Shown one piece after another: positions 1-33,721 of a DNA stretch of 64,000 nt. The DNA is from an uncultured candidate division WWE3 bacterium (GTDB lineage Bacteria > Patescibacteriota > WWE3 > UBA101185 > UBA10185). Where the stretch lies: positions 585,925 through 649,924 of the forward strand of contig CAIRNR010000007.1 in assembly GCA_903879985.1 (NCBI GenBank), given 5' to 3'. A program made the translations under genes and the position numbers. The notes under the pieces were generated by a model. That model searched no databases. It had not been told where the DNA came from and saw nothing but the letters and a program-made list of their open reading frames with translations. Positions within the stretch are counted from its first letter, which is position 1, and every line of letters starts with the position of its first letter.

Positions 1-8
1 CTTTTAAA

Positions 9-38
9 TAAAAAAAAGACCCACCAAAAACGGTGAGT
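9..38 (-). terminator. Rho-independent terminator downstream of the giant ORF: 7-bp stem (ACUCACC/GGUGGGU with one G-U pair), 6-nt loop, U8 tail, read on the minus strand
   Basis: Plus-strand sequence aaaaaaaagacccaccaaaaacggtgagt, read as its reverse complement; it lies just 3' of the stop codon at 183. Confidence 0.6.
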
Positions 39-182
39 TTAAACCTAGCCTAAACCCTTGTGGTTACGGCCTTATTAACGTGGTTTACCTCGGCAAGATT
101 TTTACATTTTCCGTGGAACTCTTGAGCAAAAGAGTAGGGGAAAATCCTTGCTGTCTTTGGTTACCTGCGTAGTTTACTATAT

Positions 183-3100
183 TTATTCGACGTTTACAAT
201 CCACCAGTCGAATTTGACGTCTGTATCAACACTGTTGTCGACTGAGACTGTAAATGATGTGCCTTCGTTCTTTTGGCTTACTACAAGCATTTGACCATTT
301 GTTGTGCTTGTAGCTGTTACGAATACCTTAGAATCGGTTTTTATTAGTGAGCTGTTTATTGTTACGGCCTTGTCGCCTGTATTAATTTGAGCACTTCCAA
401 TTGAGTCATTACCGTTGGTATTGTGTTTAACCTTGTATTGCTCAGCAGCTACGACCTTTGCATTGATAGTTCCGTTTGGTTCAAGAACGATCTTTCCGTT
501 AAACATATCAACATTTCCAGCCATTTTACTTTGTAAGTAGAGTGTCTGGCTTTCGCATAGGGCTTTATTGGTGATATCGGTTGATTCACTGTAGCAGGAA
601 GCACCGAGTACGTTTATGGCGTTAGCTATGGTATCGATCTTGATAGAACCGGCCATTAAGTTGCCTGTGATCTTTACGTCAGCGAATGTTGCGTTGCCCA
701 TGACACTTAGATCACTTGTTACTCTTAATACATCGTTGCCATTTTCATCTTTTATGGTTGTCATACCAAGGGTTCCAATAGTGTCTTTAAAGTCAGCAAT
801 GGCCTTGGTAATAGTATCCAATATGGTATTGGAAGCTTTAGCTGAGCTACTTGATTGACTTGTTTCACTTGTTTCGGAGGATTGGCTAGATTCGTCAGTT
901 AATCCAAGTTCTCTGGCAAGTTCAGCATTGGCTGCATTTTGACTATCAACCTTAGCATTAAGTTCTTGCATGGCTTTTACTAAGTAAACTTGTAAGGCTG
1001 ATAGGTTGGTATCAAGGTATTCGGTACCTTTGATAGTGGTTTTACCAACCATATCTGGGAATACTTTTTGTAAATCCTGAGCAATAAAGCCTGTTATGGT
1101 TCTGGCTCTTGTTTTATCGTCATAACCAGATAGGGCATTGTAGTTAAAGGTTGATGGCTGTAATTGCATGATCTTATCAAGGTATCCACCACTTAAGTAG
1201 CTAATGTTTTCTTTTAATCTACTATCTGAGTAGTTTGTAAATGCGGTGAAACCGTTGGCTGCTGGTTGGCCGTTAACAGTTAATGTGTAGTTTGGATTTG
1301 TTGTACCGATTCCGACGTTTCCATTTAGGAGTGTTTCAACAATGCTGGTGTTACCTAGTATTACTTGGTTATCTTTGGTTGTAGATACGCCGTTACCTAT
1401 ACCGATTGAATTCATTGCGTCGACTTTCTGATTACCCATAAACCCGGCATAACCAATAAATATATTGTTTTCTCCTGTAGTTATTGCTGCGCCCGCGTTC
1501 ATTCCGATAGCGGTGTTATATGCACCATCTGTTAGTGAGTTAAGTGTACTTTCACCTATTGCTACGTTGCCACTGCTATTAACCATATTCTCTAAAGCGT
1601 TTATACCTAATGCGGTATTGTATGCGCCAGTGGTTGTTGAAAGCATCGCGTTTAGACCAATTGCTGTGTTGTTGTAACCGTTTGTAACAGCAGCAAGTGA
1701 GTATTTACCTAGGGCTAAGTTACTTTCACCTGTTGTTGTGTGAGAACCTGCATCTACACCAATGTACATATTGTTTTTGGCGGCAGTAGAGGAGCGGATT
1801 TCAAAGTTTAGGGCGCCTGTACTGTCGATAACACTTACAAGAGCGTTGTATTTTCTGCTAATGATGTGTTTGACAGAGATATTTGAAATAGTACCGTCGT
1901 AATCACTGGTTGGTGTGAATACCAATGGTTTAGTGTTATCGGTTACAGTTATATCTGCTATAAAATTGCTGTTGTAGGAATATGGACTGTCTGCTGAAGT
2001 GGTTCCACCCAAGGATAAACTCACATCGCCATTGGTTCTACCTGTTGTTGAGAATTTAACAATATATGATTCACCGTTTGTGAGTGGCAAATTGTTAAAT
2101 ACTGTAAATGTGCCTTCACCAGCTGTATGTGTGAAACCGTCGTTATAGTTTCCTGTCCAGTCGGAAGCCATTGTCCAGTTAGCAGAACTTGTGGATTCGC
2201 TGCCTAATGGCAATACTGAAATGCCCGAAATAGTTCCGTCGAAATCGGCTGTTGGAGTAAATGTTAATGGCTCGTCGTAGTCATATGAAGTTAGTATCAC
2301 GGAGTAGGAGTTGTCGGTTGAATAACTTCCTGATGGCGCATCTTGCATGTCTAATACCACAGAACCTGCAGTTTGATCTGCAATCGTAAAGGAGACCAAA
2401 TAAGATAGTCCTGAGTCAGTTGCAACTGTTCTGGATAATGTAAATGTACTACCTGCGGCATGTATGAATCCATCAGTAAAGTTTCCGGACCAATCTGATT
2501 CAGTTGACCATAATGTGTCATTAGTTAGGTTGGCACTTAATGTTTTTACTGAAATAGCTGAAATAGTACCGTCAAAGTCGTCGGTTGGTGTGAATATTAA
2601 AGGACCCTTATCTTCTGTAGCTTTGACGACGTAGCTAATTGAATCAGTTAGTGTCCCTGATGTTTGTCCACCCAAGCCAACGGTGAATGAACCTGCTGTG
2701 CGACCTGTGACTATGAAGGATACTAGGTATGATTCATCGATTGTTGTACCTACAGGTCTTGATATTGTATCTGTGCCATCACCAGCGGCATGTATAAATC
2801 CATCATTAAAGTTTCCATCCCAACTTGAACCAACTGTCCAAGCGTATTCATCCAAATTTTCACTTCCCACAATGCGGACATTAATAGCTGTTATTGTGCC
2901 GTTAAAGTCATCTGTTGGTGTGAATATTAGTGGGCCGTTTTTTACTGATGCTGTAAGTGTTGCAGTTCCGGTACCAGAGTATCCTGCAGCTGTTTCGCCC
3001 CCAAGCCCTATAGAATATGTTCCTGCTGTTGCACCTGCAACGGTTACATCAATTCTGTAGACATTTCCTACGTCTATCGACATTTCTTTTGATAGTGCAA

Positions 3101-6100
3101 ATGTTCCGGAAGAGTGGGCGAATCCTGTGTTGTAATTACCGGTCCAGCCAGATTGCATAACCCAACCGTTTTCATCTACTAAGTCGGCACCAACCAGCCT
3201 GACGGAAATATTTGAAATTGTTCCGTTAAAGTTTGTTGTTGGTGTGAATATCAATGGGGCATTGTCGGTATCTATTGTTGTATTAAATACTGTCGTGTCA
3301 GTGATTCCTGAAGTTACGTGGTCACCCAAGGTTACATTAACTGATCCAGCTGTTCTGTCTGTGACAGTGAATGAAACTCTGTAAGTATTGGTTGTGGCAA
3401 CCGTCATTGGTCTTGATAATGTGAATGTACCGCTGGAGTGGGCGAATCCTGTGTTGTAATTACCGGTCCAACCAGATTCTTTGGTCCAGCCGGTTGCATC
3501 GGTCATTTCGGCGCCAAGTATTGGAGCGTGTTCAAGGTCTTCGGTTGAGGCAAATGCGAGTTTGGTGGTTGGGTTTGTAGTACCAATTCCAACATTACCT
3601 TTTAAGAGTGTTGTGGAAATAGAATCGTTACCAAGTACAACTTGATTATCGGCAGTTGTAAATGTGTTATCGCCAATAGCTATTGAATTTTGAACATCCA
3701 ATTTTTGTAATGCATTTGTGGCTACATATGCACCGATAAATGTATTGCTTTCTCCTGAGGAAATGCCCTCGGCTGAATGAACACCAATACTTGTGTTTCG
3801 TGAGCCTTTATTATTTGATAAAGCATTTAAACCAATTCCTACATTCCAGCTGCCATCCGTATTTTGGTAAAGTGCTTGATTTCCAATAGCCGTGTTAGAA
3901 CCACCACTAACGTTGTAGAACAAAGCTTCTTTTCCAATAGCAACGTTGGAAAAACCACTTATATTATTGTTCAAAGCGAATGCACCAATGGCTACGTTTT
4001 GACCACCTGTGGTATTGCTTAGTAAGGAATATGTTCCAATAGCAACATTTTCCCAAGCTGTAGTGTTGTTGCTAAGTGCGCTTGTGCCAATAGCCGTATT
4101 TCTTTCACCTGTTAAATTACTCCAAAGAGCTCCATTACCCACAGCAACATTTGCTATACCAGTTGTGTTGGCTGCTAATGCTTCTTTACCAAATGCTACA
4201 TTATCATATCCGGTTGTATTTGCTGTTAATGCGTAGTCTCCGAATGCATTATTGTTTTCGCCCGTTGTGTTGTGATATAGCGCATTAAGTCCAAATGCGG
4301 AGTTGTAACTGGCGGTTGTGTTTGAAAACAATGCATAATCTCCAAATGCATTATTTAAGTTTCCTGTGGTATTAGAATTAAGTGCATATCCACCAACAGC
4401 GGTATTTTGTGAACCGACGGTGTTGCTGTAAAGAGCGCTCAAGCCTAATGCGGTATTTTGTTCTCCGCCTGTATTCATTATCAAAGCGTAGCTTCCAAAT
4501 GCGGAATTTCTATTTCCAGTTGTATTAGAACCTAGTGCGTGGTTTCCTACTGCTATATTGTTGTCGCCACCTGTATATGCTGCACCTGCGCCAACACCAA
4601 TGAAGGTATTATTCATAGCGGCTATGGTTGATCTAATTTCAAAGTTTACAGCATTTGTACTATCGGAAATGCTGAAGATAGCGGCATAAGTTCTGCTATC
4701 AATATGTTTAACTGAAATATTAGAAATTTTTCCATCAAAGTCGTTGGTTGGTGTGAAGATAAGTCTTCCATTATTTGATACGGTTGTGAGCTCAATGGAT
4801 CCTGTTTCTATATAACTAGATGATGTTGTTCCTCCTAAACCAATTGTAAATGAACCAGCTGTTCTTCCAGTTATTGTGAAAGATATTATGTATGCATTAG
4901 CTGCATTAATACTGTTCATATCTCTATATACGGTCATTGTTCCTTCACCTGCAGTGTGTGTAAATCCTGTTGCGTAAGTACCAGACCAATCGGAAGCTTC
5001 AACCCAACTACTAGAGTCGGTAAGTTCAGAGCCGACGGGTAGGGTAGAGATAGCTGAAATTGTTCCATCAAAGTCAGCTGTTGGAGTGATAATAAGTGGC
5101 CCTGTGGTTGTAGCTGTGTTTACATATGTATTTGTATCAGTGAAGCTACCTGATGTTGTTCCACCTAAACCAATCGTAAATGAACCTTGTGTGCGTCCTG
5201 ATACTGTAAATGTTGTCTTATATGAATTTCCGGCTGTAATATCCATGTTTCTGGATAATGTATATACCTCTGTGCCTGGAGTATGTGTGAAACCTGCATT
5301 GTAGTCACCTGTCCATGGTGTTTCGGCTGTCCAGTCGTTAGTGTCGACAAGCTCAGCACCCAAGTGTTTGATTGAAAACTTCATCAGGCCATTAAAGTCA
5401 GCGTCTGGGTGTATTTCAAATGGTCCGTCTTCCACTAAGGCTTCGAATGTAGCGGTTTGGCTATCGTGCCAGAACCAGAATGGGTTGCCTGCGAAAACTA
5501 TGCCAAAGCTTCCTGCAGTACGCCCGGTGATTGTTGCAGCTACCAAGTATTTGTCGTATTGAGTGACGGTCATAGGCATAGTCATGACGTTGGTGTTACC
5601 TGCGTGTACAAAACCCGTACTGTTATCACCAGACCATCCAGAGTCAGATGTCCAGTCATTTTCGTCGACCATGTCACTACCCTTAAGTCTTACAGATATG
5701 TTAGAGATAGTACCGTCAAAATCAGCCGTTGGTGTAATTTTAAGTAGAGCATCATTATTATATGGGTTTAGTACAATAGTTCCAGAACCTTCAACAGTAT
5801 TGATATAATCATCACCTAGGTCTACGGTAAAGGATCCGGCTGTTCTTCCTGTTACCGTATAGCTAACATAGTATTCTGTATCTGCAGCCGCGCTTGTTGG
5901 TTTGGTTAAGTCGGCTGTACTACCAGTAACATGTGTAAATCCACTGGCATAATTACCTGTCCAGTTCTGTTGTTGTGTCCAATCATTTCCAGGTAGGAAG
6001 CTCCTATTGCCTGTTTGTCTTACAGAAATCTTAACTGTTCCGTCGAAATCGTCAGTTGGTGTTAATATCAAAGGTCCATTAGTATCCAAATTATTAATAG

Positions 6101-9100
6101 TTATATAAGAGCTGGATGCGAATAGGTTTGAATCTCCGGCCAAGCTTACGTCAACCTGACCATGTGTTCTGCCTGTAATTGTAACGGCAACATTGTAATC
6201 GCTGCTTGAGTCTATGACCATTGGTCTTGATACTGTATTAGTTCCCTCACCGCTATAATGTGTAAATCCGTCGGCATAATTGCCATTCCATCCTGCTTCT
6301 ACTGTCCAGTTGTCTGCACCTGTAAGTTCTGCGCCGACTTGTGATAAAAAGTCCAAAAATATATACGCATCGGAATCTTGAGTAGGTGTAATAACGATGT
6401 TTTCATTGTTTTGCGTTGGGGTAAGTGTGATTAAGGGCCAGTGATTATCGTTATTTATATTTACGGACTGACCGCCCATGGAAACTGTAAATGATCCTGC
6501 TGAAATTGATAAGTTTTCTATCTGGAGCTGATATGTATCACCCGAGACAACACTTGTAGGTAGATATAAAGATGTGGTTGTTCCGGTGGTATGTGTAAAT
6601 CCGTCATTGTAATTTCCGGACCAACCTGCAACCTCGGACCAATCGTTTTCGTCAAGAAGCTCTGGGCCAAGTTCAATAACTGAAATATTAGATATAGTAC
6701 CGTCAAAGTCTCCTGTTGGAGCGATGATGACTGGTCCGTTGTCATAATATGCTGTGAAAATACCACTATTTGTACCTGTCCAGCCCATACCACCGGTACC
6801 ATTACCTGCTACTGAAACGTCAAACGATCCTGCTGTGCGGTCGGTGACTGTAGCGCTTAGCATATATGCTGTGCCGGTAACAGCACTTGTTGGTCTGGTT
6901 AAAGGTGCGTTATATTTCATACCTGCAATATGTGTAAATCCGGTATTAAAGTCTCCTGTCCAACCTGAGTCCATATTCCATGTAGCACCTGTTGTCATTT
7001 CATCGCCTAATTCTTTTACAGATATACCTTCTATTTTTCCGTTAAAATCATCCGTTGGTGTTATTACCAATGGACTATTATCTTCGGTAGTTGTTAAGTA
7101 CATGATATTTTCACCTGTTTGAGCTGCAGATGTTGCACCACTTAAAGTTACTGTGAATGAACCCGTTGTGGTTCCTGAAGCAACTACGTGTACGAAATAG
7201 TTGCCACCCGAGGCTAAAGTCATAGGTCTAGATAATGCTTTTGTTCCATGGACATGTGTCCAGCCGTTTGTCCAGTTACCTGTCCAACCAGAATCCTTAT
7301 TCCAGTTTGCACTGTTTGTGAGTTCGGATCCTGCACCAACAGCTTTTACGGATATGTTCGAGATTGTGCCATTAAAGTCGCTTGATGGCGTAATGATAAG
7401 TGGCTCATTGTCATTAGCTGGTGTAAATACGCCATAACTTGTTCCGGTCCAGCCCATACCTTCATATGTAGCTCCGCCTACGGAAACGTCGAATGAACCT
7501 GCTGTGCGACCTGTAACTGTAACTGTTGTTAAGTAAGCTGTACCTGCTGTTAATGTTAAAGGTCTACTTATGCTATCTGTAATTCCTGCAACGTGTGTAA
7601 ATCCTGTGGCGTAATTTCCGGTCCAACCTGATAATCCCCATGCTGATTGCTGCAATAGATTTGCGCCTAAACTAATTGCAGAGGTAGTGATTGTTCCGTC
7701 AAAGTCACCACTTGGTCTAAATATTATTGGGGCACTATCACTAGATGCTGTAAATACGTCAAAACCCGATGCTGTCCAGCCATCCGAGCCACGTAAAAGA
7801 CCTGTTACTTGACCGCTGTAGTCTGTATAAACAGTACCTTGTGTACGGTTAGTAACGTTAACTGTTACTAAGGCAGTATTACCAATAGCTTCATCAAGTC
7901 TTCTGGATAAATCGGTACCTTCACCTGGGTTGTGGGTAAAGCCGTCGTTAAAGTTTCCATTCCAAGCAGAGCCCAATACCCAGAACTGATCAGAGAGTAA
8001 TTGATTTCCAACTTTTCTTACGTATATGTAATATATTGTTCCATCAAAGTCACTGGTTGGGGTGATAATTAATGCTCCGCTGGTTGCAGTAACATTTAAG
8101 GATACGGCGTTATTGGCTGTTTGTTCGGTTGAATAAGCTGAATCTGCTAATTTAACTGTAAATGAACCTGCAGTTCTATTTCTAACATCGAAGATTACCA
8201 AATAATCTGAACCACTTGTAAGTGTCATAGAGTTGGATGTAAGAGCCACAGTATCTCCTGCAGTATGTGTGAATCCGTCGTTATAGTTACCTGTCCATCC
8301 AGTTTGTGACGACCAATTACTGCCATTGGTCAATTCAGGCCCCACACCAACTGTTTTAACGGAGATATTAGTAATTTTTCCGTTAAAATCATTAGTTGGT
8401 GTAAATACTAATGGGGCACTATTGTCGTTAGCATTTAAGTCAAATGAACCTGAATCGGTAAATTCGCCTGATGTTTTTCCACCAAGTGAAATAATAAATG
8501 AACCTGCTGTTCTATCTGTTACGGTAAAGGATACTCTGTAGTCGATTCTTTCATATACAGTAACAGGGCGAGATAGGGTAAAGGTACCCGCGTAGTGACT
8601 AAATCCTGTGTTGTAATCGCCGGTCCAGCCAGATTCTTTTGTCCAGTTATTAGCATCAACAAGTTCTGGCCCAAGTACTGGCGCGTGTTCAAGAGCTACT
8701 GTTGAGGCAAGTGATAATTTTGAAACCGGATTGGTTGTACCAATTCCGACATTTCCGTTTAATAATGTTTGTTCGATATCGGTGTTTCCGATTACTATTT
8801 GATTGTTTCTTGTAGTAAATGCGCCGCTACCTAAGGCCATAGAGTTATTTACGTCGTGAGCTTGGAGTGGGTTAGATCCTGTCCAGTTACCTACAAATGT
8901 ATTATTAGTTCCGCTTGTAACAAGAAGCGCGCCGGCTGAGCCTACAACAACGTTTCCAACACCATTTAAGCTTGCTGCGGCTCCGTTACCCATAGCTACG
9001 TTGTATGTTCCAGTTGTATTTGCCGATAAAGCGCCTGCACCTACAGTGGTATTGTAATATCCCGTTGTGTTTGCATAGGAAGCTTGATATCCCACGGCGA

Positions 9101-12100
9101 CATTTTCCCAACCACCTGAGTTGTTAACTAATGCAGAAGTACCTATGGCAGTATTTTTTCCTCCGGTATTGTTGTTTAAGGCGTATGACCCAACGGCCGT
9201 ATTGTAGTAGTTGACTGTGTTTGTAGATAATGCACCGAAACCTAAAGCTGTATTTTCCCAGCCAGTTGTGTTGACGGCAAGTGCAGAAGTTCCTAAGGCT
9301 GTATTTTTCCCGGAGGTTGTGTTGCTCATAAGTGCACCACTTCCTATTGCTGTATTAAATTCACCTGTATTTGCATTCAATGCTTTCCAACCTACCGCGG
9401 TGTTTTCAGTTGATGTTTGGTTAGTAGAAAGTGCCCCGTAACCAAGTGCTGTGTTGTGAACGGCAGTTGTGTTGTTCATAAGTGCCCAATTACCAATTGC
9501 GGTATTTTCTGCTGCTACATTATTTTGTAATGCACTTTCACCTAACGCTACGTTGTTCCAGCCTTCTAAGTTTGAAGATAGTGCATTTATACCAACGGCT
9601 GTATTGTGATTACCTGTAGTGTTATTAACCATTGAGCCATTACCAATGGCGATGTTAAGTTCACCTGTTGTATTTGCATTTAATGCCATATAGCCAATGG
9701 CTGTATTAAAAGATGCTGTAGTGTTTTGAAGCGTGCCATTACCAATTGCGACATTGCGGATTCCCTCAATGTTGTTGGCGAGGGTCATGTCACCAATTGC
9801 AACGTTTTCAGATCCCAATGTGTTGGAAGCAAGAGATCTATATCCAATAGCAGTATCATAGCTACCAAGTGTATTACTTTCCATTGAGCCATTACCAATG
9901 GCAGTATTTCTTCCGCCTCCTGTATTTTGTAGCATTGTATGTGCTCCTACTGCCACATTCTCAGCACCTGTTGTATTAGATCCAAGTGATAGCCACCCTA
10001 AAGCGGTATTCCAGCTACCAATTGTGTTGCTTCCCAAGGCGTTATTACCCACGGCGACGTTACGTACACCCTCAGTATTTAGGAATAATGCTGCCTGGCC
10101 TACGGCCACATTTGCAAAACCTGTTGAGTTAGTTGCAAGTGTTTGCTCACCAAGGGCGGTGTTCCAACCTCCCGTTGTGTTGCTGACCAATGCACGATTT
10201 CCTACTGCCACGTTTCTTTCTCCTGTTGAGTTAATAAATAGTGCGGCTTGACCAATAGCCACATTGTTAACTCCAGTTGTATTAGTTGCAAGAGACTCAC
10301 TTCCGATGGCGGTATTCCAGCTGCCTGTAGTGTTGCTTACCAATGCGCGATTTCCTACTGCAACATTTGCTTCTCCGGTTGTGTTACCTTGCAAGGTCTG
10401 GTTACCAATAGCCACGTTGATAACTCCTGTGGTGTTATTTGCAAGACTGTAATTTCCAATGGCAGTATTCCAGCTACCAATTGTGTTGCTTGATAATGCC
10501 TCTGCACCAATGGCGGTATTCAAGTCTCCTATTGTGTTGCTGCCTAGAGCATCATTACCAACAGCAACGTTTCGTGTTCCGGTTGTATTATATGCAAGAC
10601 TGTTACCTCCAATGGCGGTATTCCAGCTTCCTGTAGTGTTGCTTGATAATGCATTTGTACCGACAGCAGTACCAAGGTCTCCGATTGTGTTGTTTTGTAA
10701 AGCATTATGACCAATCGCAACGTTTTGTGTTCCAACTGTGTTGAGGGAAAGGGCATAGTTACCTACGGCTGTATTCCAGCTTCCTGTAGTGTTGCTTAGT
10801 AACGCATCCACACCAATGGCAGTACCATATTCTCCTATTGTATTGTTGGCTAGGGCATTTTGACCAACAGCAACGTTCTGAATTCCAACTGTGTTGAGGG
10901 CAAGAGCGCGGTGACCTACTGCAGTATTCCATGAAGCGGTCGTATTTGAAATTAGGGCATCCACACCAATGGCAGTATTATATTCGCCTGTTGTGTTTGC
11001 AAATAGGGCGCTACTTCCAACGGCAACGTTATATCCGCCGCCATTATCGTTTTGTAATGCATCTGAACCGATAGCAGTATTCCAGCTTGATTCTTGATTA
11101 CTTCTTAGGGCGTTTACTCCCAAGGCAGTGTTGTTGCTTCCTAATGTATTGGCGCGCATAGCTGATGAACCAATAGCTGTATTTAAAGAACCATAGTTAT
11201 TTTCATGCAAGGCATCATAACCAATAGCGGTGTTGTTGTTTCCTTCTTGATTTTGTCTTAAAGTTTCAGCTCCAAGTGCAGTATTGGCTATACCTGTGGT
11301 GTTAGAACGCATTGCACTTGTACCTACTGCTGTATTTAAAATACCGCTGTTGTTTTCGTGTAAGGCAGAAAAACCTATTGCAACATTATTGTAACCTTCT
11401 TGATTTTGTCGTAAGGCTTCAACACCTATTGCAACGTTATTGTTTCCAAGTGTGTTGCTATACATTGCACCATCTCCAATAGCAATGTTGTATGTGCCGT
11501 TATTTTCGTGCAACGCATATGTACCTATGGCGGTGTTATAACTACCTTCGGAGTTCATTCTCAGCGCTTCAGTTCCCAATGCAATATTTTCATGACCGTT
11601 AGTATTATTATGTAGTGCGGAATCGCCCATAGCCAAGTTTAGATAACCATCGCGGTTTTCATTTAAGGATGCATTGCCAATACCTATGTTATCGTATCCA
11701 GTTGTGTTGTTGTAAAGTGCATTAACTCCTGTAGCTATGTTGTAGGAGCCTGTTGTGTTGTTGAATAATGCTCTGGTTCCTGTAGCCGTATTGTCGATTC
11801 CCGTTGTGTTGTAGTAAAGTGCGCTGGTTCCTGTAGCGACATTTCCATTTCCGCTTGTGTTGTAATACAAAGCGGTTGTACCAAGTGCGGTATTTTCATT
11901 TCCTGTGGTGTTGCTAAATAATGCTCTTGTACCTACAGCTAAGTTATTATAGCCAGTTGTGTTGGAGTAAAGCGTACTAGTTCCGAGTGCTACGTTTTCA
12001 CTGCCTGATGTGTTGTAGCGCATAGAATTGTCACCAATCGCTATATTTTCTTTTCCCACTGTATTTTCGAATAATGCTAAATTTCCCATGGCTACGTTGT

Positions 12101-15100
12101 TATAGCCAGTTGTATTGTTGTAAAGGGTACTAGTACCGGTTGCGGTGTTGTCAGTTCCCGTGGTGTTGCTATATAAAGCACCATCTCCAGTTGCAGTATT
12201 ATAGCTACCTGTAGTGTTGCTAAACAATGCCATACCTCCGATGGCGATATTTTTGTGACCTGATTTATTTGAATATAGCGCTTGCATTCCAATAGCCACA
12301 TTACTAGTTCCAGTAGTGTTATATCTAAGAGCGGACAACCCAATGGCTGTATTTTGTTCACCGGTTGTATTATCTTGCAAAGCGTATGCACCAATTCCTG
12401 TGTTGTATCTTCCTGTGGTGTTAAAGTCTAAAGCGTTTGTACCAAGAGCTACATTTAATGCTCCAGTTGTGTTATGTGAGCCAGAATTTTTGCCCATAAA
12501 TATATTTTCTTGTGCCGCTAGTGTAGATCGTAATTCAAAAGCTACGGCACCTGTACTGTCAATAATAGTGACTAGGGGCCCGTAAGTTCCGGTAATTGGT
12601 TTAACTGAAATATTTGAAATAGTACCGTCGAAATCGGATGTTGGTGTAAATACTAATGGGCCGTCTTGTGTTTCTATTACTGTATTCAAAGTATTTGTGT
12701 TGTTAATACTGCTGGATGTTACCCCGCCTAGGGTTACTGTAAATGAACCAGCTGTGCGTCCGGTAACGGTAAAAGATGTTTTGTAATTTTGGCCCTGATC
12801 AACCGACATGGTTCTCGAAATGGTATTGGTATTGCCAACTTCGTGTGTAAAGCCATCATTGTAGTTTCCGGTCCAACCAGCATCTTCTGTCCAATCATTG
12901 GAGTCAGTTATTTCAGTGCTTAAAGGTACTAAATGTATGTCTCTTATAAGTCCATTAACATTGGCTGATGGTACGATTGTGATTGGGGCATTGTCTGTAT
13001 TGGCGGTTAACATGCGATAAGTACTGCCTTGAATACCTTCTGTTCGTTGATTTCCGAGTCCTAATGAAAAATCACCTAGTGATAAGTTGTTAACTATTGC
13101 ATCAATTCGGTAGGTTGTTCCGGATAGGGTAGCGGCGGGTCTACTTAAAGGTGCATTTCCCACAACTCTTTGGAATCCGTCATTGTAATTACCTGTCCAG
13201 CTTGGTGTAGCTACCCAGTTGGTGTCGTTTAGTAATTGTGGTCCGTAATCTTTAACTGATACGTTAGTAAATGTACCGTTAAAGTCGGATGTAGGTGTTA
13301 ATACCAATCTTCCATTATCAATGCCTGGTTGGAAGCTGGCAGTTTGGCTATCATGCCAGAAGTTAAAATCGTCGCCACCAAAATTCACGTCGAATGCGCC
13401 ATTTGTTCGGTTTGCAACGGTTATTGCTACACGGAATAGTTGTCCTGCAGTATAACTTGGTACGCCAAATGATAAGGCATCTGTGTTTCCTGTTACGTGT
13501 GTTAATCCATCATTGTAGTTGCCAGTCCATGTTGTTGTGTCTGCTGGTGTACTCCAGGTGGCATAGTTCAACATGTCGTTAGCACTTGTTTGTCTAACGG
13601 ATATTCCTGTTATGGTTCCGACAAAGGTATCATCAGAAGAAATATGCAATGGGGCATTATCTGCCTTTGCAGTCAATTCATTTACTTGGTTTGGATAACC
13701 TCCTCGTGGGTACACTATATCAGTTGAATCTCCTAATGTAGTTGGTAGTTGTATTTGGGAGCTTCCTGTAGCTGACATTGTTATTTCATATGTATTTCCT
13801 GAGGTTACGCCCAATGCTTCTGTAAGCATGTAATCTGTACTATCAAGTGTGTGAGTAAAGCCATCGGTGTAATTTCCTGACCATGATGATGTAGCGGTCC
13901 AGTTTGTATCATCCACAAGATTTGTGTCTACTATTTGACGAATACTCATGTGTTGTACAGAACCATCAAAGTCATTAGATGGCGTAAACACCAATGGAAT
14001 ATTATCTCCGTCTGCGGTAACCTCTTGCATAAGACTTCCCCAGCCTCCAGTTATGCTGCCACTTGTTTGTCCTCCAAAAGTTTCTGTAACGGATCCGTGT
14101 GTTTCGTTAAATACATCAAAGCGTAGTAGATAATCCGCACCGGAAGTTACGCTAGTATTACCTGTAAGGACATCGGTGCCTCCTTCGTATGTATGTTGGT
14201 AAATGTAATCACTTCCAAAAGCGGTATGCCATTCGGATCCCATAGTTACGCTGTCTATATATTGTGGATCTAGTACGCGTTTAACTGAAATGTCCGAAAT
14301 GGTTCCGTCAAAGTTTGCCGATGGAACTATTACAATATTTTGATTATCGCTACCCGAAGTTGCTATAAGGTCTGACCCGGTGGAACTTACGTTATATCCA
14401 CCTGTATCACCTATATAAATCCTAAAGTATCCTTGAGTTCTTCCAGTCACCGTATATTGTACTAAGTAGGTGCCATTTCCTGCGGGTAGAGTAATTGGTC
14501 TGGAAATCGATCTTACATTGGCTGTATGTGTGAATCCGTCTGTAAAGTTTCCACTCCAGCCTGTACCTAGTGTCCAGGAAGCGTCGGTGGCAAGTTGTGG
14601 GCCTTTAAGTTTAAGATTATATGCCCATACATCCCCATCAAAATCGGAAGTTGGAGTTATAACAAGAGGTGTGTTACTGACTGTTGCCGCGAATTCAAGT
14701 GTGCAGTTGGTGTTATTGCTGCAAGTATGGGTAACACCTCCAAGTGATACTGTATAGGAGCCACCTGTAGCGGTCCAAGAACCAACTTCTATGGAATAGG
14801 AGTTTCCTGAAACCACTGAGGTTGGGTTACTTAGTGTAATAGTATTTCCGGTGCTATGTATAAATCCACTATCACCATCATAGGTCCATCCATTGAATGT
14901 GGGAACGCCTGTCCAAGTAGAAAAATTAAGTAAGTTTGTACCAGCACCATTTAGCGTTAAGGAATACAGGTCTACATAACTTCCATCAAAGTCAGCAGTA
15001 GGTGTGATTACTAAAGGAAGATTATTGCCACTCGCGGTGAATGTTAAAATGCATTCGGTGTCATTTTCACATGTTTGTGTTTGATCACCGAGAGTAACTG

Positions 15101-18100
15101 TAAAAGAACCTGCAGTTACATCATAAGAATCAATATCCAAATCGTAATTGTTTCCTTGTACTACGGTTGTAGTCGCTTCTAATGTTTGTGTACTACCCAC
15201 ATTATGCGTGAACCCATCGTTATAATTTCCATCCCATGACCATCCTGCTGCTGGTGCAGTTCCGGCTGAAACAATAGACCAATTATCTGCGGATGTAAGC
15301 TCTGTTGTGCCTACATATTTAAAGGATAGGTAAGTGTGACCATCATAATCTGCAGTAGGTGTTAATACCAATGACATATTGTCGGCGCTTGCAGTAAAGG
15401 TGTAGTAGCCTTCTGTGGTAAATGTATGGCTTTCGCTACCCAATGAAACCGTTATGGATCCAGCTGATCTACTTTGAGGATTAATATAAAATTCGTAGCT
15501 ACTGCCAGCTGAAGTTGGCACAGTAAATGTTAATGGGTTTGTTAAACCAATTGTGTGCGTAAAGTAACTGTAAACACTTCCGGTCCAACCTGGTTGTTCG
15601 GTCCAACCCGTATCATCAATAAGGTCTGCGCCAATTGATTTTACGGAAATGTTTGAAATGGTCCCGTTAAAGTCGTTAGTTGGTTTAAATATTAGAGCAC
15701 CGTTATCTGCAGTGGCAGTCATTGTGAAATTATCGGAGCCTGTAAATCCTGTTGTAGTGTGTCCGCCCAATTCTACGTCGAAGGATCCTGATGTTCTTCC
15801 TGCAACTGTAAATGATACTTGGTATGACACACCAGATGAGACGGACATGGTTCTAGATAGTGTAGTGTTACCTGTTGTGTGAGCAAATCCTGTTGCGTAG
15901 TCTCCGGTCCAACCTGAACTTAATGTCCAGTTATTTTCGTTAACAAGTTCATCACCTAATACTGGGGTTGCACTTTCTATATCTGCTGTTGAAGCTAAAG
16001 TAAGTTTTGATGTTGGGTTTGTAGTTCCAATACCAACATTACCACTGGCGTTTACAAATAATCCGCCTGGGTTAGAACCGCCCTTAAGCCATGTTGTTCC
16101 GGCTACGTCTAAGTTGGCTGATGGAGTGGATGTGCCAATACCCAAAGAGCTTGTGTTTTTATCGTAGAATAAGTTTTTGCTTCCGGTTGTAGAGTAGGTA
16201 TCATTCCAGAACAAAACTTGTCCTGCAATACCTGATCCTGAAACAACACCTGAAATTCCGGTTACTGTGTCACATTTCCAAACAGAGTTTATGGCGTCCC
16301 AAATTAAGATTTGGCTTGCTGAACAACCGCCTAATAATTTAAGTCCGTCGGCTGTTAATTCCATACCAGAATTACTTGATGTTGTTGATGTTGTTCCGGA
16401 TGTAGCAAGTTTAACGTCAATGTTACTGGCGTTAACTGAAATACCAGAACCTGCGCCGATTGCCATTGAGAAAGATCCGTTTGAACCTCCGCCGATAAGT
16501 CCTGAACCGGCTGTTACGGCTGTAGTTGCGTAGTTGCCGATGTTATTTGAATCCATTAATGTTCCTGATCTACCTGATAACAAATTAAGTTCTGTGGCTG
16601 TAGCTACAACTTGTGCACCACCAATAAAGAAGTTTGTGAAGTTAGCTGAACCTGCAACGTCGAGTTGATAGGCTGGGGCAGTTGTACCGATTCCAAGTTT
16701 TGCTGTTGCGTTATTCCAGTAAAGATTGTTGGAACTTGTTATTGTGCTTAAGCCGTTCCAGAATGTTAATTGGCCATTAACACCTGATCCTGATACTGAG
16801 CCATCAACGCCTGCTACTGAAGTGCATCTCCAAAGTGAAGCACCAAGATCCCAAGCTAATACTTGATTATTACCGCAACCGCCTAAAAGTCTTAATCCAT
16901 CTGCGGCTACTTCTAAACCTGAATTACCTGATGTAGAAGCTGTTGCACCTGCGGTGATTGCGTCGATTGTTATATCGTCTGCACTGATTGTGATACCGGA
17001 ACCTGCACCAATGTTTAAGGTTACGGCTCCGTTTGAACCACCGCCGATAAGTCCATTACCTGCGATTACTGATGTTGTGGCGTACATACCAAGGTTGTTG
17101 GTGTCGATTAATGAACCTGAGCGGCCTGTTAATAAGTTGATTTCACTGGTTGATGCAGTAGCACCAGAGAGTTTGTTAAGTTCTGTTGCTGTTGCAATAA
17201 CTTGTGAACCGCCAATGAATAGGTTGGTTGAGTTGATAGAGCCGGCGACTTCAAATTGGTAGGCTGGGTTGGTAGTGCCAATGCCTAGTTTTCCGGTTGC
17301 GTTATTCCAGAAAAGACTGTTTGATCCTGTTACGGAGTTTAGGCCATCCCAGAATGTTAATTGTCCTGCAACGCCAGAACCAGACACGTTACCTGTGCCT
17401 GCGCCGATTCCTGTAACTGAGTTACATTTCCAAGCGGCGTTTACGTTATCCCATGAGAGTATTTGGTTATTACTACAGCCACCAATCATTCTGAGTCCGT
17501 TGGCGGTTAGTTCTAAGCCAGAGTTAGATGATGTTACTGCTGTGTTACCTGAATTAGTAATTGCGATATCAATGTTATCTGAGTTAACTGTAATGCCTGA
17601 ACCTGCGCCGATGTTCATTGTTAGCGATCCGTTTGAACCACCGCCAAGTAAACCACTTCCGGCTGTTACTGCGGTTGTTACGTAATTAGTTGCGTTGTTT
17701 GTATCGAGTAGGGTACCGGTACGGCCAGTAAGTAAGTTGATTTCGGTTGTTGAAGCGGTAGCGCCTGAAAGTTTGTTAAGTTCGTTGGCAGTTGCAATAA
17801 CCTGTGTGCCACCGATGAACAAGTTGGTTGAGTTGATACTGCCTGCTACGTCTAGTTGATATGCTGGAGCGGTTGTACCGATACCTAATTTTCCAGATGC
17901 GTTATTCCAGAATAAGTTGTTATTTCCGATTACAGAATTTACTCCATTCCAGAAAGTTAGTTGTCCTACGGCACCTGATCCTGAAACGACGCCACCGATT
18001 CCTGTAACTGTACTGCATTTCCAAGTAGCTGAAACGTTGTCCCAAGCTAATACTTGATTAGATGAGCAACCACCTAACATTCTTACGCCACCGGCTGTTA

Positions 18101-21100
18101 ACTCTAAACCGGAATTGCTTGATGTAGCTGTTGTAGCTCCGGTTGAGGAAAGATTGATCTCAATATTGTCGGCGTTTGCTGTGATTCCGGAACCTCCGAC
18201 TACATTAATTGATAAAGCACCGTTTGAACCACCGCCGATTACACCGTTACCTGCGGTAACTGCTGTTGTAACGTAGTTAGTTGCATTGTTTGAATCGAGT
18301 AGTGTACCTGTACGGCCTGTTAATAAATTAATTTCAGTAGTTGATGCTGTAGCGCCTGAAAGTTTATTTAATTCTGTAGCAGTTGCTAGTACTTGAGTGC
18401 CACCAATGAACAAGTTGGTTGAGTTGATAGATCCTGCTACATCTAATTGGTAAGCTGGAGCAGTTGTACCGATACCTAATTTACCTGTGGAGTTATTCCA
18501 GAATAGGTTACTTGAACCGATTACAGAGTTTAAACCATTCCAGAAAGTTAATTGACCGGAAACACCAGAGCCTGAGACGTTACCTGTGCCTGCACCAATT
18601 CCTGTGACTGAACTACATTTCCAAGCGGCGGCACTACTATCCCACGAAAGAACTTGATTAGAAGAGCATCCGCCGATTAATTTGACTCCACCAGATGTTA
18701 ATTCCATACCTGAGTTACTTGATGTTGTAGAAGTTGTTCCTGATGTAGCAAGAGCTAATTCAATGTTGTCGGCGTTAACTGTAATTCCGGAGCCACCAAC
18801 GACATTTAATGTTAATGAACCAACGGAACCACCACCTGTTAAACCATTTCCTGCAGCAACTCCTGTTGTTGCGTAGCTAGCGACGTTGTTTGTATCAAGT
18901 AAAGTCCCTGATCGACCTTTGGTTAAACTAAGTTCCGCGGCACTGGCAGTAACTGCTGATCCACCGATGAATAGGGTAGACATGTTAGCAGAACCGGCTA
19001 CTTCTAATTGATAACCTGGGTTTGTGGTTCCAATACCAACTTTTCCTTGTACTAATAATCCGTTGGCAATTCCATTTCCTTCTTCATATGCTGCTGCGGT
19101 ACCAATATTTAATCCACCGTTGTTGCTCCATTTTCCAACTGAGCTTCCGTTTACAAAGAATTCCATACCATAGTTATTTTCGACACCAGATAAACCGATA
19201 CCTGCTGAAATATCGGCAGAGTTTGTTATGGACAATATAGAAGTATCCATATTGCCTTTAGCAGTTAAGACGCTGCTTGGTGATGAAGTGCCAATACCTA
19301 ATTTACCAGTGGAGTTGTTCCAGAATAGATTGTTACTACCTGTTGTGGAGTTTAAACCATTCCAGAATGCAACTTGTCCGGCAACTCCAGAACCCGACAT
19401 AACACCTGAGATTCCTGTAACTGTACTGCATTTCCATGTTGATGAAACGTTATCCCAAGAAAGAACTTGGTTTACTGAACATCCACCTAACATTCTTAAG
19501 CCACCTGCGGTTATTTCTAAACCTGAGTTAGAAGATGCTGATGAGGTAGCACCTGTTGAAGAAAGTGCGATTTCGATGTTGTTGGCATTAGCTGTAATAC
19601 CAGAACCTCCGACTACGTTAATAGTTAATGAGCCGTTTGAACCACCGCCGATAAGACCATTTCCTGCGGTTACTGCTGTGGTTGTGTAATTGGCGACATT
19701 GTTTGAATCCATTAATGTGCCTGTGCGACCTGTTAACAAATTAATTTCAGTGGTTGATGCAGTAGCACCAGAAAGTTTGTTAAGTTCTGTAGCAGTTGCA
19801 ATAACTTGAGTGCCACCGATGAACAAGTTGGTTGAATTGATGCTGCCTGCAACGTCAAGTTGATATGTTGGAGCAGTTGTACCAATACCTAATTTTCCAG
19901 TGGCATTGTTCCAGAACAAACTGTTAGATCCGATTACTGTGTTTAAGCCATTCCAGAAAGTAAGTTGTCCAGCAACACCAGAACCTGAAACATTACCTGT
20001 GCCAGCGCCAATTCCGGTTACTGAATTACATTTCCATGTGGAGTTAACACTATCCCAAGAGAGAACTTGATTAGATGAGCATCCGCCTAATAATCTCAAA
20101 CCAGAAGCTGTTAATTCCATACCAGAATTACTTGATGTTACAGAAGTTGTTCCTGTTGAGGTTAAGTTGATTTCAATATTGTTTGCGTTGGCTGTAATTC
20201 CGGAACCTCCAACTACGTCAATTGTTAGCGCTCCGTTTGAACCACCGCCGATTAAGCCATTTCCTGCTGCTACTGCTGTAGTAACGTGATTTGATGCATT
20301 ATTTGTATCTAGTAATGTTCCTGTACGACCTGTTAATAAGTTAATTTCAGTGGTTGATGCTGTAGCGCCAGAAAGTTTGTTTAGCTCTGCTGCTGTAGCA
20401 ATAACTTGTGAACCGCCGATAAATAAGTTTGTTGAGTTAATAGAACCTGCGACATCGAGTTGATAGGCTGGAGCGGTGGTGCCGATTCCAAGTTTTCCGG
20501 TTGAGTTATTCCAGAAAAAGTTGTTACTTCCTGTTGTGGCATTTAAACCGTTCCAGAATGCAACTTGTCCTGCAACGCCGGAACCTGACACGACTCCGCC
20601 GATTCCTGTGACGGTACTGCATTTCCATGTTGATGAAACGTTATCCCAAGCTAATACTTGGTTTACCGAACAACCGCCAAGTAATCTCAAACCACCGGCT
20701 GTTAATTCCATACCTGAGTTAGAAGATGTAGCTGATGTAGTTCCGGTTGTGGAAAGAGCTAAGTCGATACCATCGGCGCTAACTGTAATTCCGGAACCGC
20801 CACCAATGTTTAATGTTACTGATCCGTTTGAGCCGCCGCCTAGTAAACCGTTACCTGCTGCAACTGCTGTTGTTGCATAAGAGTTGACGTTGTTTGTATC
20901 AAGCAAAGTTCCGGATCTGCCTTTGGTTAAACTTAATTCAGTTGCGTTAGCAGTTACTGCTGAACCGCCAATGAATAGGGTAGACATGTTAGCAGAACCG
21001 GCAACTTCTAATTGGTAACCTGGGTTTGTAGTTCCGATTCCAACATTTGAACCACTTTGGAATAGGGTAGAGTTTTTAATTGTGTAGCTGCCGTTAAACA

Positions 21101-26955: not shown

Positions 26956-27807
<852 letters not shown>

Positions 27808-27816
27808 ATTTATTAT

Positions 27817-28605: not shown

Positions 28606-28609
28606 TTGT

Positions 28610-33096: not shown

Positions 33097-33100
<4 letters not shown>

Positions 33101-33720: not shown

Positions 33721-33721
33721 A

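What the first reader, a model, noticed from the sequence alone, without database searches (positions are those of the whole stretch)
950..1260. Tail-fibre intramolecular-chaperone (S74-like) domain at the C-terminus implies auto-processing and trimeric fibre assembly
The motif 'YSDSRLKENISYL' is encoded at 1212..1229 on the minus strand. It is followed by 'LQPSTFNYNALSGYDDKTRARTITGFIAQDLQKVFPDMV' and then about 270 more residues. In phage proteins this domain folds the preceding trimeric beta-helix and then cleaves itself off at the Ser of the dyad. Its presence suggests the mature protein is a trimeric fibre and that the last about 370 aa are released.
Basis: partly seen in the sequence, partly recalled or inferred. 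Interest (0 to 1): 0.65.

Follow-up and report, generated by a model that had tools for sequence, protein, structure and literature searches.

The report
Self-cleaving chaperone domain in giant bacterial fibre
The phage-type self-cleaving "assembly chaperone" domain is really there, but it sits in a 903-kDa membrane-anchored surface protein of an uncultured ultra-small (CPR) bacterium rather than in a phage tail fibre, and an extra conserved end-module follows it that canonical versions lack.

Summary
An S74 intramolecular-chaperone domain is encoded at about 885..1229 (-). Pfam PF13884 scores 59.5 bits against a cutoff of 22. The Ser8485/Lys8490 dyad is intact, and the predicted fold's best PDB matches are MyRF, GA-1 gp12, endoNF and T5 LTF.

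- **Not a tail fibre.** The domain belongs to one 8,832-aa ORF (183..26681, -) in a bacterial chromosome, between the atp operon and an L10 leader, and no phage genes were seen.
- **Protein layout.** It runs MerR-type HTH, TM helix, about 8,300 aa of repeats, S74, acidic Ser-rich linker, then a conserved roughly 210-aa end-module. That module ends in a tailspike-like β-sandwich.
- **Not C-terminal.** The Ser lies 348 aa from the end, against 101–145 aa in most canonical homologues.
- **A large family.** The end-module gives 3,701 cluster representatives, mostly from CPR/WWE3 loci, and is always C-terminal. In 77 of 80 long relatives it directly follows S74 or a Peptidase_G2-type autocleaving chaperone.
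- **Dyad conserved.** Ser is kept in 61/61 and Lys in 62/62 of these S74 domains.

Best reading: a C-terminal cassette trimerises the giant fibre, then cuts at Tyr8484|Ser8485 and releases a 37-kDa fragment. Cleavage is inferred, not shown. This is a new variant of a known kind.

The parts
183..26681 (-). Single ORF of 8,832 aa (903 kDa) that contains the finding
   Evidence: Found by the ORF listing. The same 8,832-aa gene is called in ENA scaffold BUCK21...scaffold_110 and in NCBI MAG GCA_903994745.1. The overlapping DNA is 99.0-100% identical in four independent assemblies. Composition is 48% T+G+S+N.
26478..26609 (-). N-terminal MerR-type helix-turn-helix (aa 25-68), predicted cytoplasmic
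   Evidence: Pfam MerR PF00376 scores 32.5 bits (cutoff 28.2) and MerR_1 PF13411 scores 25.5 bits (cutoff 21.6). NCBIfam matches only the HTH part of RepA, IS607 and HspR models. The same N-terminal module recurs in relatives.
26235..26285 (-). Hydrophobic helix YLVIAFIITTLLLAGTN (aa 133-149), a putative signal-anchor
   Evidence: Read from the translation. It has the highest Kyte-Doolittle mean in the first 300 aa (1.88), and more K/R residues lie on its N-terminal side. Topology is inferred.
15882..25334 (-). Type A repeats: about 16 copies of a 200-aa unit (aa ~450-3600), up to 90% identical
   Evidence: Self-BLAST and offset analysis. No Pfam or PDB sequence match. Boundaries are approximate.
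1932..15884 (-). Alternating repeat blocks. Type B is a ~110-aa unit (aa ~3600-4650, 6000-7300, 7650-8250). Type C is a 17-aa 'NTAIGxxALxxxTTGxx' unit (aa ~4650-6000, 7350-7650).
   Evidence: Self-BLAST, with offsets in multiples of ~110 and of 17. TRF finds 51- and 153-nt periods. Only weak, sub-threshold Cadherin_5 and CshA_repeat hits fall in type B.
1362..1934 (-). Last repeat stretch before the neck (aa ~8250-8440): a type B-like start, then type C 17-aa repeats
   Evidence: Translation and self-BLAST. PHROG tail-fibre and virion-structural families match this stretch.
1230..1361 (-). Neck (aa 8441-8484), ...GNVGIGTTNPNYTLTVNGQPAANGFTAFTNY. It would become the C-terminus of the mature fibre.
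   Evidence: It aligns with the MyRF stalk motif GRVGINTDRPDEALVVHGN. It is nearly invariant among homologues.
1212..1229 (-). Catalytic dyad segment SDSRLK (Ser8485 nucleophile, Lys8490 base). The predicted scissile bond is Tyr8484|Ser8485.
   Evidence: Among S74 domains that precede the same end-module, Ser is kept in 61/61 and Lys in 62/62. The cleavage position is taken by analogy with MyRF P586|S587 (PMC8326128).
885..1229 (-). S74 intramolecular chaperone domain (aa 8485-8599), including its C-terminal long helix (aa ~8563-8599)
   Evidence: Pfam PF13884, 59.5 bits. A local ICD HMM scores 179 bits over aa 8473-8589. The AF2 model has pLDDT 85-98 and a 37-residue terminal helix. Fold hits are 7dc3, 3gud, 3gw6 and 4uw8.
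816..884 (-). Acidic Ser/Thr/Glu/Gln-rich linker (aa ~8600-8622)
   Evidence: Translation. Homologues have a linker of the same composition. The model has pLDDT below 50 here.
411..815 (-). Middle part of the end-module (aa ~8623-8757): a helix, β segments, two invariant Cys (8696, 8709) and the motif AGNVDxFNGKIVLEPNG
   Evidence: Alignment A2 shows the invariant C, Q, G, N and P columns. The monomer AF2 model has low confidence here. No Pfam or NCBIfam match.
186..410 (-). Terminal β-sandwich (aa ~8758-8832), ending FDWWIVNVE
   Evidence: AF2 pLDDT 85-95 with six strands. Foldseek's best hits are C-terminal β-sandwiches of tailspikes: 7eea (rmsd 2.2 Å over 74 columns), 9k4a, 7w1c and Sf6. 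Pfam K1-lyase_C PF24146 scores 22 bits here, below its cutoff of 27, but reaches 29.1 bits in relative L016.
3..178 (-). Ribosomal protein L10 leader RNA directly downstream. This is context, not part of the protein.
   Evidence: Rfam RF00557, 51.3 bits against a gathering score of 44.

Best explanation
The region encodes a genuine S74-type intramolecular chaperone/autoprotease domain. It lies near the C-terminal end of a 903-kDa membrane-anchored surface fibre of an uncultured CPR/Patescibacteria bacterium; its closest relatives are in candidate division WWE3. Proposed mechanism: the N-terminal MerR-like HTH stays in the cytoplasm, a single TM helix anchors the chain, and the roughly 8,680-aa ectodomain is exported N-to-C. 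When the C-terminus emerges, three chains are brought into register by the C-terminal cassette, which consists of the S74 domain with its coiled-coil helix, a flexible acidic linker, and a Cys-containing module ending in a tailspike-type β-sandwich. The S74 trimer then templates folding of the adjacent 17-residue-repeat β-structure. Ser8485, activated by Lys8490, finally cuts the Tyr8484|Ser8485 bond. This releases a 348-aa (37.4 kDa, pI 4.7) fragment per chain and leaves a mature fibre ending ...FTAFTNY. Shown here: domain identity, fold, catalytic residues, protein architecture, chromosomal context, and the family-wide link between the end-module and autocleaving chaperone domains. Inferred: topology, trimeric state, the cleavage event, and the role of the end-module.
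For: S74 identity rests on Pfam (59.5 bits against 22), PDB sequence matches with the dyad aligned, and a fold match to all solved ICD families. The functional residues tested in MyRF (S587, K592, Y615, Y617, I637, Q639; PMC8326128) correspond to S8485, K8490, F8512, Y8514, I8533 and Q8535. The dyad is under strict conservation in this architecture: Ser 61/61 and Lys 62/62. The end-module is a real family with 3,701 representatives at E<=1e-3 and 130 at E<=1e-30, and the match always ends at the protein's C-terminus. Of 80 relatives with at least 650 aa of sequence, 44 have S74 and 33 have a Peptidase_G2-like IMC domain directly upstream. Pfam PF11962 supports the G2 assignment in P0060 (35.7 bits, above the cutoff of 25) and weakly in L015 and P0085. 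The G2-like segments share a GxDxAE motif with an invariant Glu. What the two unrelated upstream domains have in common is trimerisation coupled to self-cleavage. The cellular context is shown. The HTH and TM are shown. The terminal β-sandwich resembles the tailspike C-terminal trimer caps.
Against: No experimental data exist for this protein: no protein mass, N- or C-terminal mapping, or imaging. The trimeric state was not modelled, because only monomer AF2 was available. The middle of the end-module is predicted with low confidence. A 210-aa module with invariant Cys and many invariant positions seems strongly conserved for a discarded pro-peptide, which leaves room for a separate function. 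The type B ~110-aa repeats could be monomeric Ig-like beads rather than part of a trimeric shaft. The G2-like assignment for most relatives rests on my own iterated HMM; only 6 of 27 reach Pfam E<=0.01. The organism's taxonomy is inferred from relatives and was not read from a marker gene.
Confidence: 0.62

Rival explanations
1. The S74 domain works only as a permanent trimerisation and folding module and is not cleaved, or is cleaved but the fragment stays bound. In this reading the conserved end-module, with its tailspike-like β-sandwich, is the working distal tip of the fibre: an adhesin or glycan-binding head used to contact a host cell.
For: The terminal β-sandwich resembles the C-terminal domains of tailspikes and depolymerases, which sit at the receptor-facing end. 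The module is strongly conserved, with two invariant Cys, and is very widespread. That level of conservation suggests a function beyond a throw-away pro-peptide. CPR bacteria are thought to be episymbionts that need attachment devices (general knowledge).
Against: The Ser and Lys of the dyad are invariant in every S74 domain that precedes this module. Where S74 is absent it is replaced by another autocleaving chaperone type with an invariant Glu, so cleavage appears to be the shared, selected property. In all studied S74 proteins the dyad cleaves once the trimer forms (PMC8326128).
Confidence: 0.22
2. One reading: a phage or prophage tail fibre or tailspike, whose C-terminal chaperone is removed during virion assembly.
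For: PHROG tail-fibre families match the last ~260 aa before the linker. NCBI names relatives 'tail fiber domain-containing protein'. The S74 domain was first described in phage proteins.
Against: None of the 20 other ORFs I scanned in the 64-kb window gave a phage hit. The gene is flanked by the atp operon and an L10 leader, inside the secE-nusG-rplKA...rplJ region. The protein is 8,832 aa, has an N-terminal HTH and a membrane anchor, and relatives share that layout. A pattern-based scan of 2.9 million viral contigs found no copy of the end-module.
Confidence: 0.03
3. The giant ORF is an assembly or annotation artefact, for example collapsed or chimeric repeats or fused genes, so the S74 domain belongs to a much smaller protein.
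For: The gene is highly repetitive, with 200-aa units up to 90% identical, and such repeats are hard to assemble. The N-terminal 300 aa found no homologue in the word-indexed search.
Against: The frame stays open for 26.5 kb. The same 8,832-aa product is called in two independent assemblies, and four assemblies are 99-100% identical over the region they share, which includes type A repeats. Relatives of 3,400-7,185 aa have the same head (HTH-TM) and tail (IMC plus end-module).
Confidence: 0.04

Closest known systems
C-terminal intramolecular chaperone domain (CIMCD, MEROPS S74) of phage endosialidase endoNF, T5 L-shaped tail fibre pb1 and GA-1 gp12
   Same: It has the same Pfam family, the same fold (3gw6, 4uw8 and 3gud are among the top hits) and the same Ser-x4-Lys dyad. 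It also sits directly after a repetitive β-structured stalk, and most likely performs the same trimerise-then-cleave function.
   Different: The host protein is cellular, membrane-anchored and 8,832 aa long. The domain is not C-terminal: 348 aa lie between the Ser and the end, against 101-145 aa in most canonical homologues. A conserved linker and end-module follow it.
MYRF/MrfA ICA domain (eukaryotic membrane-bound transcription factors)
   Same: It is the best structural match (7dc3, E=2.4e-6). It is a non-phage protein in which the ICA domain is internal and more sequence follows it. The protein also combines a DNA-binding-type domain, a TM helix and an ICA domain.
   Different: In MYRF the DNA-binding domain and the ICA lie on the same side of the membrane, so cleavage frees the transcription factor. 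Here the HTH is at the far N-terminus on the cytoplasmic side of the TM, and the ICD is about 8,300 aa away on the outside, so cleavage cannot release the HTH.
Peptidase_G2 IMC domain of the phi29 gp12 pre-neck appendage type (PF11962)
   Same: In about 40% of relatives, a G2-like domain occupies the same position as S74 does here, directly upstream of the same linker and end-module. This points to an interchangeable role.
   Different: It is an unrelated fold with a different catalytic type, and it is not present in this protein.
C-terminal β-sandwich domains of phage tailspikes and depolymerases (Pam1 tailspike 7EEA, K64-1 S2-4 9K4A, K1 lyase 7W1C/PF24146, Sf6 TSP)
   Same: The last ~75 aa have the same small β-sandwich fold (rmsd 2.2-4 Å, 15-23% identity). 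Relatives reach the Pfam K1-lyase_C threshold.
   Different: Here the sandwich comes after a self-cleaving chaperone domain, not after a catalytic β-helix. In this protein the Pfam score is below the cutoff (22 against 27 bits).
Trimeric autotransporter adhesins (YadA-like) and giant bacterial surface proteins
   Same: It is a long modular fibre built from short Gly/Asn/Thr/Ala-rich repeats, and assembly is expected to start from a C-terminal trimerising element. It is a giant surface protein of a small-genome bacterium.
   Different: There is no β-barrel anchor, and no YadA_head or stalk Pfam hit in this protein. The anchor is N-terminal. The resemblance of the repeats is recalled from memory and was not tested.

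Membership tests
Peptidase S74 / intramolecular chaperone auto-processing domain (Pfam PF13884) | Significant match to the family profile above the curated threshold | tested here: met
   59.5 bits against a cutoff of 22, E=4.1e-16, covering profile positions 1-57 of 58.
Peptidase S74 / intramolecular chaperone auto-processing domain (Pfam PF13884) | Ser-Lys catalytic dyad with i, i+5 spacing (endoNF S911/K916, MyRF S587/K592) | tested here: met
   S8485 and K8490 align to the catalytic positions in 8JOV and 7DC3. They are invariant in 61/61 and 62/62 related domains. The reference residues come from PMC8326128.
Peptidase S74 / intramolecular chaperone auto-processing domain (Pfam PF13884) | ICD fold: β-hairpins and short helices followed by a long C-terminal helix that forms a trimeric coiled coil | tested here: met
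   The AF2 model has pLDDT 85-98 and a helix at model residues 164-200. The top 12 PDB fold hits are 7dc3, 3gud, 3gw6 and 4uw8. The trimer itself was not modelled.
Peptidase S74 / intramolecular chaperone auto-processing domain (Pfam PF13884) | Located directly after a trimeric β-helical or fibrous stalk | tested here: inconclusive
   The conserved neck motif GNVGIGTTxPxYxLTVNG aligns with the MyRF stalk, and 17-aa repeats precede it. The model of that stretch has pLDDT below 60.
Peptidase S74 / intramolecular chaperone auto-processing domain (Pfam PF13884) | Domain forms the extreme C-terminus, about 100-150 aa from the Ser to the end (phage CIMCD proteins) | tested here: not met
   348 aa lie between the Ser and the end, against 101-145 aa in most homologues. 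This feature is not universal: MYRF and the T9SS-tailed proteins P0063/P0064 also break it.
Peptidase S74 / intramolecular chaperone auto-processing domain (Pfam PF13884) | Autoproteolytic release of the domain after trimer formation | not testable with these tools
   This needs protein chemistry: mass spectrometry or SDS-PAGE of wild type against S8485A.
Phage tail fibre / tailspike | Encoded in a phage or prophage genome next to virion structural genes | tested here: not met
   The neighbours are the atp operon, rplA, nusG, tRNAs, topA, glyA, thyX, rpsB, rseP, dnaX and an L10 leader.
Phage tail fibre / tailspike | N-terminal virion-attachment domain, and a size typical of fibres (hundreds to about 1,500 aa) | tested here: not met
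   The N-terminus is a MerR HTH followed by a TM helix, and the protein is 8,832 aa long.
MYRF-like membrane-bound transcription factor | DNA-binding domain and ICA on the same side of the membrane, so that cleavage releases the DNA-binding domain | tested here: not met
   The HTH is at aa 25-68, the TM at aa 133-149 and the ICD at aa 8485-8599. The TM and about 8,300 aa separate them.
K1-lyase_C (PF24146) tailspike C-terminal β-sandwich | Profile match above the gathering threshold | tested here: inconclusive
   This protein scores 22 bits, below the cutoff of 27. Relative L016 scores 29.1 bits, and 8 of 27 relatives match at E<=0.01. The fold match to 7w1c, 7eea and 9k4a has probability 0.99-1.0 but E values of only 2e-3 to 9e-2.

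The most novel reading that the evidence does not exclude
The gene represents an undescribed, CPR-wide class of giant surface fibres: a membrane-tethered MerR-HTH, a fibre of up to about 8,000 aa, an interchangeable S74 or G2 autocleaving chaperone, and a conserved end-module. In the most novel reading these act as contact sensors. The released or engaged end-module, or tension on the fibre, would report host contact across the membrane to the cytoplasmic HTH, for example through intramembrane proteolysis by the S2P protease encoded in the same window. That would couple attachment of an episymbiont to gene regulation, a bacterial inverse of MYRF.
Probability: 0.07. Interest if true: 0.9.

Novelty: new variant of a known kind. 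Interest (0 to 1): 0.55.

Why it matters
How ultra-small CPR/Patescibacteria cells attach to and interact with their hosts is largely unknown. This gene takes up 26.5 kb, and a complete genome of a related lineage (WWE3) is only 0.88 Mb, so it must matter to the cell. The analysis suggests that such giant fibres are built with the same fold-then-cut chaperone logic as phage tailspikes. It also defines a conserved C-terminal cassette (S74 or G2, then linker, then end-module) and an N-terminal HTH-TM head that together mark a large, unannotated family. That gives a concrete construct to express, and two point mutants (S8485A, K8490A), for testing assembly. It also warns that 'tail fiber domain-containing protein' labels in CPR genomes do not indicate prophages.

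Tried and rejected
- **Phage origin.** Rejected on gene context, and no viral-contig relatives of the end-module were found.
- **Other domains in the giant protein.** Pfam on halves and on ten segments found only MerR and S74 above threshold. The Cadherin_5, CshA_repeat and Kelch hits are sub-threshold. PDB sequence searches of both halves found nothing. NCBIfam found nothing for the C-terminus.
- **N-terminal homologues.** The word-indexed search with aa 1-300 returned nothing, not even the protein itself, so that index seems to miss giant proteins. Local phmmer against the collected relatives recovered the HTH in more than 20 of them.
- **Naming the organism.** Cluster look-ups gave no names. 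The taxon is inferred from related loci, mostly WWE3.
- **Positional orthology with WWE3 loci.** Only L010 has an L10 leader nearby, so this was not supported.
- **Counting G2-like domains by regex.** This undercounted (15 hits) and was replaced by an iterated HMM (55 hits).
- **Terminator reading.** I first took window 1-60 for an intrinsic terminator; it is part of the L10 leader.
- **Literature.** Searches found no paper describing S74 in CPR giant proteins. The library is incomplete, so this is only weak evidence of novelty.
Full report
**1. Observation**

On the minus strand, YSDSRLKENISYL is encoded at 1232..1194. After SGGYLDKIMQ comes the quoted LQPSTFNYNALSGYDDKTRARTITGFIAQDLQKVFPDMV.

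Pfam Peptidase_S74 (PF13884) matches with E=4.1e-16 and 59.5 bits against a cutoff of 22, over almost the full profile. It is the only such domain in the protein. PDB sequence search finds a tail fibre (8JOV, E=7e-6) and the MyRF ICA domain (7DC3, E=0.005), with SDSRLK lying on their catalytic segment.

An AF2 model of aa 8400-8600, built with 51 homologues, has pLDDT 85-98 over the domain and ends in a 37-residue helix. Its 12 best PDB fold matches are exactly the solved intramolecular chaperone domains: MyRF 7dc3 (E=2.4e-6), GA-1 gp12 3gud, endoNF 3gw6 and T5 LTF 4uw8.

**2. What the domain belongs to**

The motif lies in one ORF, 183..26681 (-), of 8,832 aa and 903 kDa. The rest of the window is a bacterial chromosome:
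- atpA/G/D, rplA, nusG, folD and fmt;
- topA, an MFS transporter, glyA and thyX;
- rpsB, an RseP-type protease and dnaX;
- a Thr-Tyr-Thr-Trp tRNA cluster;
- an L10 leader RNA at 3..178 (-), directly downstream of the giant gene.

None of the 20 other ORFs I scanned gave a phage hit. The same 8,832-aa gene is called in an ENA scaffold of 95.7 kb and in NCBI MAG GCA_903994745.1. Four independent freshwater assemblies are 99.0-100% identical to the window over the shared 13-21 kb, which includes part of the repeats. The ORF is therefore not an assembly accident.

**3. Architecture** (boundaries approximate)

| aa range | Feature | Evidence |
|---|---|---|
| 25-68 | MerR-type HTH | Above both Pfam cutoffs |
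| 133-149 | Hydrophobic helix YLVIAFIITTLLLAGTN, more basic residues on its N-side | |
| ~450-3600 | About 16 copies of a 200-aa repeat, up to 90% identical | |
| ~3600-8440 | Blocks of a ~110-aa repeat alternating with blocks of a 17-aa NTAIGxxALxxxTTGxx repeat | |
| 8441-8484 | Neck...GNVGIGTTNPNYTLTVNGQPAANGFTAFTNY | |
| 8485-8599 | S74 domain | |
| ~8600-8622 | Acidic Ser-rich linker | |
| ~8623-8832 | End-module | |

T, G, S and N together make up 48% of the residues. Apart from MerR and S74, no Pfam, NCBIfam or PDB sequence match reaches threshold.

**4. The S74 domain is not terminal**

In 70 homologues of the C-terminal part, the Ser-to-end distance is usually 101-145 aa; here it is 348 aa. 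The extra part is a conserved module. An alignment with ten relatives shows two invariant Cys, an AGNVDxFNGKIVLEPNG motif and a terminal FDWWIVNVE.

AF2 gives a confident six-strand β-sandwich for the last ~75 aa (pLDDT 85-95) and low confidence for the middle. The sandwich best matches the C-terminal β-sandwiches of tailspikes and depolymerases: 7eea with rmsd 2.2 Å over 74 columns, then 9k4a, 7w1c and Sf6. This agrees with a sub-threshold Pfam K1-lyase_C hit here (22 against 27 bits) and an above-threshold one in relative L016.

**5. The end-module defines a large family tied to autocleaving chaperones**

An exhaustive profile search finds 3,701 cluster representatives at E<=1e-3, 1,446 at E<=1e-10 and 130 at E<=1e-30. 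In the listed hits the match ends at or near the carrier's C-terminus, and carriers reach 7,185 aa.

Species-representative genomes with the module are mostly candidate division WWE3, including the complete genome CP006914.1. Others are Saccharibacteria, Microgenomates and unclassified Patescibacteria. No relative was found in 2.9 million viral contigs.

Upstream of the module, Pfam finds S74 in L007-L010, L016 and L017, and Peptidase_G2 (described by Pfam as an "IMC autoproteolytic cleavage domain") in P0060 and L015. Six of 27 S74-less members reach Pfam E<=0.01 for G2. With local HMMs, of 80 relatives with at least 650 aa of sequence, 44 have S74 and 33 have the G2-like domain directly upstream. 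Of the 3 with neither, one (P0087) shows an SSIRFK S74 motif by eye.

In the 67 S74 domains in this position, the catalytic Ser is kept in 61/61 and the Lys in 62/62 rows that cover those columns. The G2-like segments share a GxDxAE motif with an invariant Glu. Two unrelated domains whose shared properties are trimerisation and self-cleavage thus occupy the same slot. That argues that cleavage is selected and that the end-module is part of the released fragment.

**6. Mechanism**

According to the MyRF ICA structure paper (PMC8326128):
- cleavage occurs N-terminal to the catalytic Ser (P586|S587);
- it needs S587 and K592, which correspond to endoNF S911 and K916;
- it happens only in the trimer;
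- it is affected by Y615, Y617, I637 and Q639.

The aligned residues here are S8485, K8490, F8512, Y8514, I8533 and Q8535.

I therefore propose the following sequence:
1. The HTH stays in the cytoplasm, the TM helix anchors the chain, and the ectodomain is exported.
2. The C-terminal cassette brings three chains into register.
3. The S74 trimer templates the neighbouring 17-aa-repeat structure.
4. Ser8485/Lys8490 then cut Tyr8484|Ser8485 and release a 348-aa, 37.4-kDa acidic fragment.

Topology, trimer formation, cleavage and the role of the end-module are all inferred, not shown.

**7. Rival readings**

- **Functional tip.** The end-module may be the working adhesin tip, with S74 uncleaved or the fragment retained. 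The module's strong conservation and tailspike-like sandwich favour this; the invariant dyad and the S74/G2 interchange argue against it.
- **Phage tail fibre.** Rejected on gene context and protein architecture.
- **Assembly artefact.** Rejected because independent assemblies agree and relatives share the same head and tail.

**8. Comparison with known systems and novelty**

By profile, dyad and fold, the domain is a member of S74. It departs from the phage CIMCD pattern in three ways: it is internal, it is followed by a conserved module, and it sits in a cellular membrane-anchored giant protein.

MYRF is the closest non-phage precedent and the best structural match. However, MYRF's logic, in which cleavage frees a DNA-binding domain, cannot apply here. 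The HTH and the ICD lie on opposite sides of the membrane and about 8,300 aa apart.

Most complete relatives also begin with the same MerR-type HTH followed by a TM helix, so the whole layout is a family trait. Four literature searches found no description of it, although the library is incomplete and NCBI already labels fragments as "tail fiber domain-containing protein".

**9. Verdict**

This is a new variant of a known kind, of moderate interest (0.55).

Noticed in passing
window 26235-26609 (-); relatives P0087, P0100, P0108, P0099, P0156, P0109, P0128, P0101 and others: The giant protein starts with a MerR-type HTH followed by a TM helix. Most complete end-module-bearing relatives (1,300-7,185 aa) have the same head. 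A membrane-tethered HTH on a giant extracellular fibre has no obvious role.
   Followed up: partly
window 3-178 (-): A ribosomal protein L10 leader (RF00557, 51.3 bits) lies directly downstream of the giant gene. The giant gene and the atp operon therefore sit between rplK-rplA (33097-34162, -) and rplJ, interrupting the usual secE-nusG-rplKAJL cluster.
   Followed up: partly
relatives L012, L013, L015, P0060, P0085 and about 30 others: In about 40% of family members, a Peptidase_G2-like IMC autocleavage domain replaces S74 in the same position, before the same linker and end-module.
   Followed up: yes
P0063, P0064: Other bacterial proteins have S74 followed by a T9SS Por_Secre_tail sorting domain (PF18962). 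This is another case of a non-terminal S74 domain.
   Followed up: no
relatives such as P0138: Some family members carry Hint/intein-type domains (Intein_splicing, PT-HINT) inside the fibre region.
   Followed up: no
window 26986-29098 (+): Three ORFs (273, 262 and 162 aa) lie directly upstream of atpA, where the a, c, b and delta subunits would be expected. They give no Pfam hit at E<=1e-3.
   Followed up: no
window 52193-53836 (-): The ThyX ORF is 547 aa and has two Thy1 stretches, about twice the usual length. It may be a tandem-duplicated or fused ThyX.
   Followed up: no
window 58145-59302 (+) and 35111-35719 (+): An RseP-type site-2 protease (Peptidase_M50 plus PDZ) is encoded in the window, along with a second ORF that has a weak M50 hit in the precomputed annotation. 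This matters only for the speculative idea that the HTH could be released by intramembrane proteolysis.
   Followed up: no
window 15882-25334 (-): The type A 200-aa repeats are up to 90% identical at protein level and about 75% at DNA level between copies. Copy number could vary between strains, and short reads would have trouble resolving it.
   Followed up: partly
P0073 (WWE3, 265 aa), P0093, P0097 and other short carriers: Some end-module carriers are short ORFs that begin with Met and have only a coiled coil, linker and module. They may be stand-alone versions or split or truncated gene calls.
   Followed up: no
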